This document shows, piece by piece, positions 39,201 through 42,200 of a stretch of 64,000 nt of DNA. The stretch lies in the NCBI RefSeq assembly GCF_017348835.2, contig NZ_CP071375.1, one strand, 5' to 3'. Position numbers: made by a program. Position 1 is the stretch's first letter, and every line of letters starts with the position of its first letter. This stretch comes from Escherichia coli (lineage in GTDB: Bacteria; Pseudomonadota; Gammaproteobacteria; Enterobacterales; Enterobacteriaceae).

Positions 39201-42200
39201 AGGATTATGCAAGTTGGCCCACGCATACGATAGTGTTTTTGCTGTTGTCAAGTTTCTTTGGGGGATGTATAGGTTCAACTTGTGGTGGAATTAAGTCACT
39301 TCGATTTCTTATACTTTTCAAACAAAGCAAACACGAGATAAATCAGCTTTCTCATCCCAGAGCGTTGTTGAGTGTAAATGTAGGAGGGAAGATAGTTACA
39401 GATCGTGTAATGAGGTCTGTATGGAGTTTCTTTTTTCTTTATACTCTCTTCACGGTGTTTTTTATACTGGTGTTAAATGGTATGGGATATGATTTTCTTA
39501 CATCATTTGCAACAGTGGCTGCATGTATTAATAATATGGGATTAGGTTTTGGGGCTACTGCATCGTCATTCGGAGTGCTTAATGACATTGCAAAATGTTT
39601 AATGTGCATAGCTATGATTCTTGGTCGCCTTGAAATTTATCCTGTTATTATATTGTTTTCAGGTTTTTTTTGGCGCTCCTAATATATGGCTGATTTATAA
39701 TTGTGAGTTTAATATTATGTTGACTCACTCATTGATCCAATACCTAACTTTACCAGCAACACCTCCGTCCCCAGTAGCACTGGCTGCTGGGGTGCGTTTT
39801 ATTCATAAAGCAAGGCTGTATGAGCGAGAAATTAAAGATAGTCTATCGCCCATTACAAGAATTGTCACCGTATGCGCACAACGCCAGGACGCACAGTACT
39901 GAGCAGGTGGCACAACTGGTAGAAAGTATTAAGCAATTCGGCTGGACTAATCCGGTGCTGATTGACGAAAAGGGCGAAATTATTGCGGGTCACGGTCGTG
40001 TTATGGCGGCTGAAATGCTCAAAATGGATTCTGTTCCGGTCATTGTTCTGTCTGGCCTGACGGATGAGCAGAAAAAGGCGTACCGCCTGGCAGATAATCG
40101 CCTGCCGATGAATGCTGGCTGGGATGAAGATCTGTTGCGGATGGAGCTGTCGGACCTAATCAATGCTGATTTTGATGTCTCCCTGACAGGCTTCATCCCG
40201 ACAGAAATTGATGAACTGTTGACGGATGTTTTGCCCGGTACCGGAGCTTTGTGGAAGCGTACAGCCGTCGGATTAACGAATTTCGCCTGGATCAACACAT
40301 CCGGCGATACATATGATATTTACGTTGAGATTGGCAATTATGCGACGAGTGTAAATATCCATTGGGATTGTACTACAAATGCGTCAGTTTCTATTTATAC
40401 CTCGCCAACATATTCAGCGAGTAAGCCTTCCAGCGTTACCGGTGGTGTTGTTTATACGATGTATAGCTCACATCAGAAACCTACACCATCAGATATTGGA
40501 GCGCTGCCAACAACCGGAGGAACAGTTTCAGGTCCGTTGTCTGTTACAGGTGGATTAACTGGTTCATTGAATGGTAATGCAAGTACAGCCACGAAATTGC
40601 AGACGGCAAGATCTATCGGTGGAGTTGTTTTCGACGGTTCTGCAAATATTAACCTTCCAGGTGTAAACACTACGGGTAACCAGAACACCACTGGTAATGC
40701 TGCAACTGCTACAAAACTTCAGACTGCAAGAAAAATATCCGGTGTTCCATTTGATGGTTCTACTGATATCACTTTAACCGCTGCGCATGTTGCCGCTTTC
40801 GCAAGAAGGGCAACAGGGTCATATGCGGATGCTGATGGTGGCGTTCCCTGGAATGCCGAATCAGGCGCTTACAATGTCACCCGCTCTGGCGACAGCTATA
40901 TTCTGGTTAACTTCTATACCGGGGTCGGAAGTTGCCGCACCCTGCAGATGAAGGCACATTACAGAAATAGAGGTCTGTTCTACCGTTCTTCAAGAGACGG
41001 TTATGGTTTTGAGGAAGACTGGGCAGAAGTTTATACCTCGAAAAATCTTCCACCAGAAAGCTACCCAGTCGGCGCACCAATCCCGTGGCCATCAGATACC
41101 GTTCCGTCTGGTTATGCCGTGATGCAGGGGCAGACTTTTGACAAATCTGCTTACCCGAAACTTGCAGCTGCTTATCCGTCAGGCGTGATCCCTGATATGC
41201 GTGGCTGGACGATTAAGGGTAAACCTGCCAGTGGTCGTGCCGTATTGTCTCAGGAACAGGACGGCATTAAATCGCACACCCACAGCGCCAGCGCATCCAG
41301 TACGGATTTGGGGACGAAAACCACATCGTCGTTTGATTACGGCACTAAATCCACGAATAACACTGGTGCGCATACCCATAGTTTAAGTGGCAGCACGAAT
41401 GCAGCTGGTAATCACAGCCATAGAGATGGCCGTCGATTTAACCCCAGTGTTTTTAAAGATACTTATCAATATGGTTATACAAGCTCAGGTCAAAATACCT
41501 GGGGTGTACAAGGCTCAGTAGGTATGTCTACGGGGGCGTTAGCTAATACCAGTACAGATGGTAATCATAGCCACTCACTGTCCGGCACAGCAGCATCTGC
41601 AGGTGCACACGCGCATACTGTCGGTATTGGTGCTCATACGCACTCTGTTGCGATTGGCTCACATGGACACACCATCACCGTTAACGCTGCTGGTAACGCG
41701 GAAAACACCGTCAAAAACATCGCATTTAACTATATTGTGAGGCTTGCATAATGGCATTCAGAATGAGTGAACAAGCACGGACCATAACAATTTATAATCT
41801 GCTGGCCGGAACTAATGAATTTATTGGTGAAGGTGACGCATATATTCCGCCTCATACAGGTCTGCCAGCAAACAGTACCGATATTGCACCGCCAGATATT
41901 CCGGCAGGCTTCGTGGCTGTTTTCAACAGTGATGAGGCATCGTGGCATCTCGTTGAAGATCATCGGGGAAAAACCGTCTATGACGTGGCTTCCGGCGACG
42001 CGTTATTTATTTCTGAACTCGGTCCGTTACCGGAAAATGTTACCTGGTTATCGCCGGAAGGGGAGTTTCAGAAGTGGAACGGCACAGCCTGGGTGAAGGA
42101 TACGGAAGCAGAAAAACTGTTCCGGATCCGGGAGGCGGAAGAAACAAAAAACAACCTGATGCAGGTAGCCAGTGAGCATATTGCGCCGCTTCAGGATGCT

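What the first reader, a model, noticed from the sequence alone, without database searches (positions are those of the whole stretch)
39820..41751. Single open reading frame fusing a ParB-like nuclease N-terminus to a side-tail-fibre C-terminus; all packaging, head and tail genes are absent
The 643-aa ORF starts as a ParB/Srx-type domain and continues without a stop into tail-fibre repeat sequence and a His/Thr/Ser-rich distal domain, followed by an intact tfa gene. No terminase, portal, capsid or tail-tube genes are present between the lysis cassette/trkG and this ORF. The simplest explanation is a large in-frame deletion from a ynaK-like gene into stf. The product could still present a receptor-binding tip, which is of interest for tailocin-like or engineering uses.
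Basis: partly seen in the sequence, partly recalled or inferred. Interest (0 to 1): 0.4.

Follow-up and report, generated by a model that had tools for sequence, protein, structure and literature searches.

The report
Deletion-made ParB–tail-fibre fusion pseudogene
The 643-codon reading frame is a leftover made when a 24.5-kb deletion in a decayed Rac-type prophage of E. coli joined the start of a ParB-like gene in frame to the last half of a side-tail-fibre gene; this is ordinary prophage decay, except that the break in the fibre gene falls on a short motif (TTACC) where many unrelated prophage remnants also break.

Summary
Window 39820-41751 (+) is one 643-aa ORF. Residues 1-141 match the ParB-like YnaK protein (263 aa when intact). 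Residues 141-643 match residues 589-1091 of a 1091-aa lambdoid side tail fibre (Stf). An intact tfa gene follows, and the window has no packaging, head or tail genes.

E. coli LSN03-016011/A carries the undeleted prophage in the same context (trkG-ynaK ... stf-tfa-sitDCBA). Against it the window lacks 24,542 bp, with a 3-bp (6 of 7) microhomology at 40239-40245. The exact junction occurs in 2 of 5,426 complete E. coli genomes and a few draft assemblies, and in no phage record. RefSeq annotates it as two pseudogene fragments.

The product would keep a complete T4 gp37-like receptor-binding tip. It lacks the tail-attachment domain and half of an internal segment, and it sits behind a terminator-like hairpin. 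It is most likely an inert remnant, and possibly a recombination reservoir for infecting lambdoid phages.

Unexpected extra: all four TTACC pentamers in this stf allele are deletion end points in independent prophage remnants. The one used here recurs with at least seven different upstream partner genes. The mechanism is unknown.

The parts
39820..41751 (+). Chimeric 643-aa ORF ynaK'::'stf. RefSeq annotates it as two pseudogene fragments, 39820-40077 and 40240-41751.
39820..40241 (+). Part derived from the ParB/Srx-like gene ynaK: codons 1-141 of a 263-codon gene. The ParB_N domain (aa 23-90) is kept and the C-terminal 122 aa are lost.
   Evidence: 99.6% identical to strain M1, where the ORF is 263 aa; Pfam and PHROG hits
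40239..40245 (+). Deletion junction TAC-C-GGA. TAC is shared by both parents and 6 of 7 bases match (ynaK TACAGGA, stf TACCGGA). The junction creates the palindrome CCGGTACCGG. It lies on a TTACC motif of stf that recurs as a break point.
40242..41751 (+). Part derived from the side tail fibre gene, equal to Stf residues 589/590-1091 of the 1091-aa LSN03-type protein. The 4.5 kb of right-hand homology that contains it is 99.85% identical at DNA level.
41056..41748 (+). Complete distal tip (collar, His-x-His needle, head), homologous to the T4 gp37 receptor-binding tip.
   Evidence: PDB 2XGF, E 1.4e-84 over Stf 861-1091; Collar domain
41751..42335 (+). Intact tail-fibre assembly/chaperone gene tfa. 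Its start overlaps the stop of the chimera.
39769..39792 (+). Terminator-like hairpin (10 pairs, 7 G-C) followed by a T-rich tail, between trkG and the chimera. No promoter-like site lies between it and the ATG.
38225..39682 (+). trkG, the left neighbour. It is a cargo gene of the Rac-type prophage.
21097..21139 (+). attL-side copy of the 43-nt direct repeat at the 3' end of ttcA that bounds the prophage.
46092..46134 (+). attR-side copy of the repeat (93% identical). The whole element is about 25 kb and includes sitABCD.

Best explanation
The ORF is a pseudogene chimera produced by one illegitimate, microhomology-associated deletion of about 24.5 kb inside a Rac-type lambdoid prophage integrated at ttcA.

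The deletion joined codon 141 of the ParB-like gene ynaK to codon 589 of the side-tail-fibre gene stf. Both genes happen to read Thr-Gly at that point, so the junction is in frame. It removed the rest of ynaK and the first 588 codons of stf. Between them it removed:
- a glucosyltransferase-like gene;
- both terminase subunits, portal, scaffold and capsid genes;
- all tail genes through J and lom.

The element is otherwise heavily decayed: the immunity region is gone, recE is truncated, and there is an IS3 insertion.

If translated, the product would be a cytoplasmic protein made of a ParB_N domain, the second half of an uncharacterised internal Stf segment, the fibre shaft, and a complete gp37-like tip that Tfa could help trimerise. 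It cannot attach to any tail. I infer that it has no cellular function of its own. The plausible biological value of the locus is as a stf-3'/tfa cassette that infecting lambdoid phages can pick up by homologous recombination.

Shown: the anatomy, the parentage, the break point and the distribution. Inferred: lack of expression and lack of function.
For: Parentage and break point:
- Window 32852-40245 matches LSN03-016011/A (locus L005) 10739-18137, and window 40239-44768 matches L005 42673-47202 at 99.85%. The 24,542 bp between hold every morphogenesis gene.
- Junction sequences were read base by base.
- The full-length ParB-like ORF is 263 aa in M1 and ET776.

Distribution:
- The junction is found only in PE164 and F2_81 among 5,426 complete genomes.
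- The identical protein is on 5 draft contigs, always in the same trkG ... sit context.
- No phage has this architecture.
- NCBI's PGAP annotation pipeline calls it two partial pseudogenes.

Age and selection:
- Carriers differ by only one synonymous base in the ORF, so the fusion is recent and there is no power to detect selection.

Expression and function:
- A terminator-like hairpin lies upstream and there is no promoter-like site.
- The tail-attachment domain is absent and the tip is intact.
- Lambda acquires markers from Rac stf/tfa at about 2e-6 by homologous recombination (PMC3945230).
Against: - Nothing contradicts the deletion origin.
- Against 'inert': the ORF is intact in every carrier seen, the fusion is in frame, and tfa is translationally coupled to it. 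These would also be expected of a very young remnant, and an in-frame outcome has a 1-in-3 chance.
- Expression was not measured.
Confidence: 0.9

Rival explanations
1. The junction is not a random accident. The stf break point is a sequence-specific hot spot (TTA|CC with a shared TA) where some DNA-breaking or recombining activity repeatedly initiates deletions in lambdoid prophages. The chimera is one outcome of that process. This complements the main explanation rather than excluding it.
For: Motif and site use:
- The LSN03-type stf contains only four TTACC pentamers, at L005 42540, 42672, 42870 and 43585. All four are deletion end points in independent remnants.
- Site 42672, the one used in the window, is joined to at least seven different partners. 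These are ynaK (window); the gene after ynaK (ET776/ES9); a Qin-type small terminase (PI12); lambda-type capsid E (IAL7255 and two IMG/VR contigs); a GpA-type large terminase (P0175); and two positions of J (P0173, P0174).
- Site 42540 is joined to E, to Nu1 and to another ORF.
- Site 42870 is joined to J and to portal.
- Site 43585 is joined to site 42672.

Junction detail:
- Every junction reads xxT|ACC.
- The known native partners all carry TA at the cross-over: GGTA|CAGG, CTTA|CCGG, GGATA|TGGG, GGATA|ACGG, GGATA|TGCT.
- Strain S3 has TTACT instead of TTACC at the site, and its junction lies 21 bp upstream.
- With a 600-bp query centred on the site, 17 of 600 matching records are partial, and at least 6 of the 17 start at the site.
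- One event is out of frame (ET776), and one uses the site as the left end (L029). This argues against selection for a C-terminal protein fragment.
Against: - No mechanism was identified.
- There is no Din-invertase-type site in stf.
- There is no match to the Rci recombinase's sfx site.
- No type I-E CRISPR spacer targets the site in 5,426 genomes.
- There is no significant DNA hairpin (z = -0.2).
- There is no suitably oriented Chi site.
- Some events may be nested. For example, E-site 42540 could give E-site 42672 by a 132-bp TACC-TACC deletion, so the number of fully independent events is lower than the number of junction types.
- Part of the sample was found by protein search, which only sees in-frame fusions.
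- One junction rests on a 245-bp contig (L032).
Confidence: 0.6
2. The fusion has been co-opted. An expressed, tail-less Stf C-terminal fragment, helped by Tfa, acts for example as a poison subunit that co-trimerises with the fibres of superinfecting lambdoid phages, or as another anti-phage or surface factor.
For: - The ORF is intact with a complete tip and its chaperone gene.
- Four of five DNA-ascertained ynaK/terS/E/stf junction types near the site are in frame.
- The prophage carries other defence cargo, iteA/iteS.
Against: - The in-frame excess is not significant: about p = 0.05-0.1 for 4 of 5, or 4 of 6.
- The junction falls between two recurrent break points of one uncharacterised segment (the other is at Thr546 'TMPQASS') rather than at any known domain boundary; no Pfam domain or solved structure covers the segment.
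- There is no signal peptide or promoter evidence, and a terminator-like hairpin lies upstream.
- Carriers are few and nearly identical.
- Stf is dispensable for lambda (PMC3945230).
Confidence: 0.07
3. The ORF is a native ParB-fibre protein of some phage family, or an assembly artefact.
For: None beyond the uninterrupted reading frame.
Against: - No homologue has both halves other than the identical sequence.
- No phage record covers 80% or more of the protein.
- The junction is present in two independently finished genomes and several draft assemblies with slightly different flanks.
Confidence: 0.01

Closest known systems
Rac cryptic prophage of E. coli K-12 (ttcA-integrated; intR ... recET ... 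trkG-ynaK ... stfR-tfaR)
   Same: - Same integration site, with att repeats.
- Same intR/xisR, recT, trkG, ynaK 5' end and lysis genes.
- Same stf-tfa right arm.
- Same general state of decay.
   Different: - The deletions are different and independent. K-12 joins ynaK (at L005 17965) to ydaY (at L005 29526) and keeps a tape-measure fragment, lom and a full stfR.
- The window joins ynaK (18133) directly to stf codon 589.
- The window has also lost the racR/kilR/ydaS-T immunity region.
- It carries sitABCD in place of pinR, and it carries iteA/iteS.
Intact Rac-type prophage of E. coli LSN03-016011/A (NZ_CP035884.1) and strain M1
   Same: - Same flanks and gene order.
- Same-accession tfaR protein (WP_021558792.1).
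- stf 3' half and downstream flank 99.85% identical; sitDCBA downstream.
   Different: These prophages retain the 24.5 kb with all packaging, head and tail genes, and a 1091-aa Stf.
Lambdoid side tail fibre Stf / T4 gp37 distal tip (PDB 2XGF)
   Same: The C-terminal 231 aa align with the gp37 tip at E 1.4e-84. This covers the collar, the His-x-His needle repeats and the terminal [10 protein letters not shown], and a Tfa/gp38-type chaperone gene lies downstream.
   Different: - The N-terminal 588 residues are missing, including the tail-attachment domain.
- The head-domain insert differs from T4, so the receptor cannot be inferred.
Other deletion-made X::stf fusions in E. coli prophage remnants (terS::stf in PI12 Qin-type, E::stf in IAL7255, A::stf, J::stf, portal::stf)
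   Same: Same or sister TTACC break point in stf, the same '[11 protein letters not shown]...' start of the Stf part, and tfa downstream.
   Different: The upstream partner and the prophage type differ. Each is rare and, as far as I could find, undescribed.

Membership tests
Rac-type defective lambdoid prophage | Integrated at the 3' end of ttcA and bounded by direct att repeats, with intR/xisR next to attL | tested here: met
   43-nt repeat at 21097-21139 and 46092-46134; ttcA, intR and xisR annotated
Rac-type defective lambdoid prophage | Rac gene set: recT/recE, trkG, ynaK, and stf-tfa at the right arm | tested here: met
   recE is truncated. trkG-ynaK is 99.4% identical to K-12.
Rac-type defective lambdoid prophage | Defective: lacks genes needed to make particles | tested here: met
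   No terminase, portal, capsid or tail gene in the window. The intact relative has them.
Lambdoid side tail fibre (Stf) | N-terminal 'prophage tail fibre N-terminal' domain (PF08400) that docks on the tail tip | tested here: not met
   Present at residues 1-134 of the 1091-aa parent-type protein, absent from the fusion. It corresponds to PDB 9e7m.
Lambdoid side tail fibre (Stf) | Collar plus gp37-like His-rich distal tip, followed by a tfa chaperone gene | tested here: met
ParB/Srx N-terminal domain proteins (phage YnaK-like, phrog_620) | ParB_N domain | tested here: met
   Pfam ParB_N at aa 23-90, 26.9 bits against a cut-off of 26.3; phrog_620 E 3.5e-70
ParB/Srx N-terminal domain proteins (phage YnaK-like, phrog_620) | Full-length protein of about 263 aa, including the C-terminal half | tested here: not met
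   The fusion matches profile positions 3-143 of 217 only. The intact ORF is 263 aa in M1 and ET776.
Tailocin / phage-tail-like bacteriocin | Tail tube, tape measure, baseplate or tip genes next to the fibre gene | tested here: not met
   None in the window
Invertible tail-fibre cassette (Din-family Pin/Gin/Cin) | Crossover site of the form TTCTCCCAAACCAAGGTTT in the fibre gene, plus an adjacent invertase | tested here: not met
   No AAACCNNGGTTT-like site in stf within 2 mismatches. The e14 pix sites were recovered as a positive control. There is no pin gene in this element.

The most novel reading that the evidence does not exclude
The stf end of this deletion is one of four TTACC motifs in the gene that act as nucleotide-precise, recurrent deletion end points. 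Junctions read xxT|ACC, with a TA shared by the partner. The events occur across Rac-, Qin- and lambda/DLP12-type prophage remnants and involve at least a dozen different partner positions. That would point to an undescribed sequence-specific breakage or recombination activity (topoisomerase-like, transposase-like or recombinase-like) that drives the characteristic loss of morphogenesis genes while sparing the stf-3'/tfa cassette.
Probability: 0.45. Interest if true: 0.65.

Novelty: new member of a known kind. Interest (0 to 1): 0.33.

Why it matters
On its own the chimera matters little. It is a textbook example of how cryptic prophages shed structural genes, and of how an automatic ORF reading can suggest a 'new architecture' that is really two pseudogene halves.

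It has three practical uses:
- It flags that K-12 Rac is a poor reference for Rac diversity.
- It documents an intact parent-type Rac prophage with sitABCD as cargo.
- It shows that a complete gp37-like tip plus its chaperone survives where homologous recombination with an incoming lambdoid phage could rescue it, which could change that phage's host range.

The recurrent TTACC break points, if confirmed by a systematic survey, would be of wider interest. They would show that prophage decay is partly channelled by sequence-specific events rather than by random deletion. They would also give a simple, testable substrate for studying illegitimate recombination in vivo.

Tried and rejected
1. K-12 as reference for the break point. 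K-12 ynaK homology stops at window 40073 because of K-12's own deletion, and K-12 stfR is not homologous at the right break. I used LSN03-016011/A and M1 instead.
2. Natural module boundary at the junction. The 634-aa 'tail fiber proteins' that also cover 78% of the query are N-terminally shortened Stf whose homology continues upstream of the junction, so the site is not a mosaic boundary.
3. Din-family invertase (Pin) site. There is none in stf, and no inverted repeat between stfR and the pinR side in K-12. The e14 pix sites look quite different.
4. Rci shufflon site. The sfx sequence is GTGCCAATCCGGTACGTGG. Only CCGG and GTGG are shared, and the spacing is different.
5. Self-targeting type I-E CRISPR. 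The site has an AAG protospacer-adjacent motif (PAM) in front of GGATTACCGG... and the break falls at protospacer position 6/7. However, no array in 5,426 genomes holds such a spacer.
6. DNA hairpin or palindrome at the site. The fold z-score is -0.2.
7. Chi-directed protection. All Chi sites of the intact prophage face the wrong way and none is near the site.
8. IS200/IS605-type TTAC| cleavage. This is inconsistent with the E and J junctions, where the stf side must contribute CCGG.
9. IS1 end mimicry. ATTACC equals the last 6 nt of the IS1 right end as I recall it. The rest does not match, and the break is not at the would-be element end.
10. Metagenome scan for more junctions. The single hit (L021) is a chance 21-nt match inside an unrelated methyltransferase-like ORF.
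11. K-12 Qin stfQ'. It uses a different stf allele, so its junction could not be placed on the TTACC map.
12. Selection test on the ORF. Only one synonymous difference exists among carriers, so there is no power.
13. A structure prediction of the internal Stf segment was not run. Monomer models of trimeric fibres are unreliable, and the 2XGF homology already settles that the tip is complete.
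Full report
**1. The observation**

The ORF listing gives a 643-aa ORF at 39820..41751 (+) with an ATG start, followed by a 194-aa ORF at 41751..42335. Its domains are as follows.
- Pfam places ParB_N at residues 23-90, gp37_C at 338-407, Collar at 418-465 and a Phage_fiber repeat at 513-526. The next ORF is a complete Caudo_TAP protein.
- PHROGs gives phrog_620 (ParB-like partition protein, profile positions 3-143 of 217) for residues 1-142. It gives phrog_295 (tail fiber protein) for residues 151-643.

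The window is 99.99% identical to the chromosome of E. coli PE164, a pig isolate (NZ_CP114128.1). In that record PGAP (NCBI's annotation pipeline) annotates the ORF as two pseudogene fragments. One is 'ynaK, ParB/Srx family N-terminal domain-containing protein, missing C-terminus' at window 39820-40077. The other is 'phage tail protein, missing N-terminus' at 40240-41751. The annotation of the 63 kb compared contains no terminase, portal, capsid, tail-tube or tape-measure gene.

**2. What the element is**

The ORF lies in a Rac-type prophage integrated at ttcA. The element is bounded by a 43-nt direct repeat at 21097-21139 and 46092-46134. Its gene order, is:
- intR, xisR, rcbA, an IS3 insertion, ralR, recT;
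- a recE fragment that abuts a ydaU-family gene, so the whole racC-kilR-sieB-racR-ydaS/T immunity region is missing;
- replication genes;
- the iteA/iteS defence pair;
- a Q-like DUF1133 gene;
- lysis genes, then trkG;
- the chimera, then tfa;
- sitDCBA on the other strand.

So this is a roughly 25-kb, multiply deleted remnant.

**3. Parentage and break point**

A 501-bp query across the middle of the ORF splits cleanly. Over a thousand genomes match window 39950-40245 under 'ynaK'. Others match 40239-40450 under 'prophage tail fiber N-terminal domain-containing protein'.

Strain M1 has the left parent in an intact prophage. There the ParB-like ORF is 263 aa and is followed by a glucosyltransferase-like gene, terminase subunits, portal and so on.

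Strain LSN03-016011/A has the whole undeleted arrangement in the same context. Its order is trkG, ynaK, packaging, P22-type capsid, tail genes, J, lom, IS200C, a 1091-aa stf, the same tfaR protein accession, then sitDCBA.

BLAST of the window against that locus (L005) gives two blocks.
- Window 32852-40245 matches L005 10739-18137 at 97.6%.
- Window 40239-44768 matches L005 42673-47202 at 99.85%.

The window therefore lacks 24,542 bp.

Read base by base, the three sequences are:
- ynaK: ...TTTTGCCCGGTACAGGAAATG
- stf: ...CCAAAGGGATTACCGGAGCTTTG
- window: ...TTTTGCCCGGTACCGGAGCTTTG

TAC is shared (6 of 7 bases over TACNGGA). Both genes read Thr-Gly there in the same frame, so the fusion is in frame. 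ParB-like residues 1-141 are joined to Stf residues 589-1091.

K-12 Rac cannot serve as a reference. Its ynaK is cut at the equivalent of window 40073 and joined to ydaY by a separate deletion. Its stfR is not homologous across the right break point.

**4. Distribution, and the refutation test**

The junction occurs in 2 of 5,426 complete E. coli genomes, PE164 and F2_81, both from pigs.

In a 5.8-billion-protein collection, the only protein among the 8,000 scored candidates that covers both halves is the identical 643-aa sequence. It lies on five NCBI draft contigs, always between trkG and tfa-sit. All other hits cover 78%, the Stf half.

No phage record covers 80% or more. The best phage matches are to the distal half only: phages Kati, PhiR30_1 and PhiR34_1, at about 97% over residues 299-643.

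One carrier (L012) has an intact sitB and 19 flanking differences. It has only one difference in the ORF, a synonymous one, so the fusion is young and no selection test is possible.

**5. What the product could do**

The parent Stf matches two solved structures.
- Residues 861-1091 match the T4 gp37 receptor-binding tip (PDB 2XGF) at E 1.4e-84. The fusion keeps this part whole.
- Residues 1-94 match a chain named 'Tail fiber protein' in PDB entry 9e7m. This falls within the PF08400 N-terminal domain, which I take from general knowledge to be the tail-docking part, and the fusion lacks it.

No Pfam domain or solved structure covers the segment that contains the junction. A second recurrent break point lies 43 residues upstream within the same segment (...WFKLATVTMPQASS...[13 protein letters not shown]...NIHWD...). 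From the sequence pattern this looks to me like one beta-rich unit that the junction would split; that is inference.

A terminator-like hairpin (39769-39792) lies between trkG and the ATG, and no promoter-like site lies between them. The early promoters and the repressor region that would normally drive Q-dependent late transcription are deleted.

I infer that the ORF is poorly expressed, if at all. Any product would be a cytoplasmic protein that cannot attach to a tail and has no function of its own.

The locus still holds a complete tip and its chaperone gene. Lambda has been shown to acquire DNA from the Rac stf/tfa region by relaxed homologous recombination at about 2e-6 (PMC3945230). A reservoir role for incoming phages is therefore the most plausible biological consequence. 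The tfa genes of the carriers already differ by clustered substitutions typical of such exchange.

**6. An unexpected regularity**

While looking for other carriers I found different junctions that end at the same stf nucleotide. They are listed here with the left partner in lower case and the shared stf sequence after the bar.

| Carrier | Left partner | Junction | Frame |
|---|---|---|---|
| ET776/ES9 (Rac) | gene after ynaK | ...ctgact\|TACCGGGGC | out of frame |
| PI12 (Qin-type remnant) | small-terminase-like ORF | ...tcccg\|TACCGGGGC | in frame |
| IAL7255 and two IMG/VR contigs | lambda-type capsid E | ...gtgga\|TACCGGAGC | in frame |

A search of 1.84 billion representative proteins with Stf 500-696 added three more fusions that start at '[11 protein letters not shown]':
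- one to a GpA-type large terminase (P0175);
- two to different positions of J (P0173, P0174).

The same search showed two further recurrent start points.
- 'TMPQASS' is joined to E (P0137), to Nu1 (P0254, which rests on a 245-bp contig and is weak) and to another ORF (P0247).
- 'T(G/Y/D)GVVYTMY' is joined to J (P0269) and to portal (P0262).

At DNA level the three start points are the TTACC pentamers at L005 42672, 42540 and 42870. The stf gene has only four TTACC pentamers. The fourth, at 43585, is joined to the one at 42672 by an internal deletion in locus L029.

Every junction reads xxT|ACC.

The native partner sequences I could recover all have TA at the cross-over:
- ynaK GGTA|CAGG
- glucosyltransferase-like gene CTTA|CCGG
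- lambda E GGATA|TGGG
- J GGATA|ACGG
- J GGATA|TGCT

Strain S3 has an stf allele that reads TTACT at the main site. It shares the ynaK break, but its stf break lies 21 bp upstream at GGTA|ATGG.

With a 600-bp query centred on the main site, 17 of 600 matching records were partial, and at least 6 of the 17 began at the site.

Two features argue for a mutational hot spot rather than selection for a particular protein fragment:
- one junction is out of frame (ET776);
- one event uses the site as a left end (L029).

The excess of in-frame fusions among DNA-ascertained cases is not significant.

Two caveats apply:
- Part of the sample came from protein searches that can only see in-frame fusions.
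- Some junctions may be nested derivatives. For example, E joined to 42540 could become E joined to 42672 through a 132-bp TACC-TACC deletion.

**7. Mechanisms tested for the hot spot**

None of the mechanisms I tested is supported.
- Din-family invertase sites are absent. The e14 pix sites served as a control.
- The Rci recombinase's sfx site does not match.
- No type I-E CRISPR spacer matches the site, although the break sits 6-7 nt into a protospacer preceded by an AAG PAM.
- There is no notable DNA secondary structure.
- There is no suitably oriented Chi site.
- Cleavage after TTAC, as by IS608-type TnpA, is excluded by the E and J junctions, where stf must supply CCGG.

A topoisomerase-type staggered break or a 2-bp (TA) cross-over of a serine-recombinase kind would fit the junction geometry, but I have no evidence for either.

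I found no paper that describes this, within the limits of the library searched.

**8. Verdict**

As a gene it is an ordinary deletion-made pseudogene fusion in a decaying Rac prophage, already split into two pseudogenes by RefSeq, and the tailocin idea has no basis. The only part that goes beyond the ordinary is that the stf break point belongs to a small set of TTACC motifs that recur as precise deletion end points in many unrelated prophage remnants. That deserves a systematic survey.

Noticed in passing
window 40239-40245; loci L005 42540/42672/42870/43585, L006, L016, L017, L019, L024, L026, L029, L033, L036, L037, L038: All four TTACC pentamers of the LSN03-type stf gene are recurrent, nucleotide-precise deletion end points (junctions read xxT|ACC, with TA shared by the partner). 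This holds across Rac-, Qin- and lambda-type prophage remnants. The site used in the window has at least seven different upstream partners. The mechanism is unknown.
   Followed up: partly
window 44256-44768 (junction at 44759-44768): sitB is truncated by an internal deletion of about 255 bp with a 10-bp overlap, relative to LSN03 (L005 47202 to 47457) and S3. PGAP marks it as a pseudogene. One carrier of the same ynaK::stf fusion (L012) still has a 275-aa sitB, so this deletion is younger than the fusion.
   Followed up: partly
window 42548-45732, inside att repeats 21097-21139 / 46092-46134: The sitABCD iron/manganese transporter operon lies inside the att-bounded Rac-type element, where K-12 has pinR-ydfK-ynaM. 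The intact prophage of LSN03-016011/A has it too. It therefore appears to be prophage cargo that can travel with a complete phage.
   Followed up: partly
window 25297-27227: A recE fragment (missing its N-terminus) directly abuts a ydaU-family gene on the opposite strand. The whole Rac immunity and toxin region (racC, kilR, sieB, racR, ydaS, ydaT) is absent, so the element has no repressor and none of the racR-controlled toxins.
   Followed up: no
window 29405-32798: The anti-phage pair iteA (ATPase) and iteS (S8 peptidase) sits in the moron position of this Rac variant. LSN03 has different genes there (4-fold beta flower protein, hypothetical).
   Followed up: no
window 23010-24223: An IS3-family element is inserted between rcbA and ralR.
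   Followed up: no
window 41775-42254: Carriers of the identical fusion ORF differ by 7-13 clustered substitutions confined to tfa, against 0-1 in the 1.9-kb fusion ORF. This suggests recent gene-conversion tracts from other prophage tfa genes.
   Followed up: partly
locus L003 6634-7587 (strain M1), deleted from the window: In intact Rac-type prophages the ParB-like gene is followed by a 317-aa protein that matches phrog_842, 'beta-glucosyl-HMC-alpha-glucosyltransferase' (E 1e-103). The ParB-like N-domain also matches phrog_498, a DNA methyltransferase with a ParB-type N-terminus. Together these hint at a DNA-modification module upstream of the terminase genes.
   Followed up: no
loci L002, L007-L010, L014: At least seven different deletions start within about 700 bp downstream of trkG (L005 17894, 17965, 18132/3, 18150, 18198 with IS3, 18561, 18581) in different E. 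coli lineages. The ynaK site CCCGGTA is used twice, in the window and in S3. This may partly reflect how the genomes were retrieved, since they were ranked by similarity to the window.
   Followed up: partly
window 38950: The only Chi site (GCTGGTGG) in window 30000-47000 lies inside trkG. All five Chi sites of the intact prophage arm face the same way.
   Followed up: no
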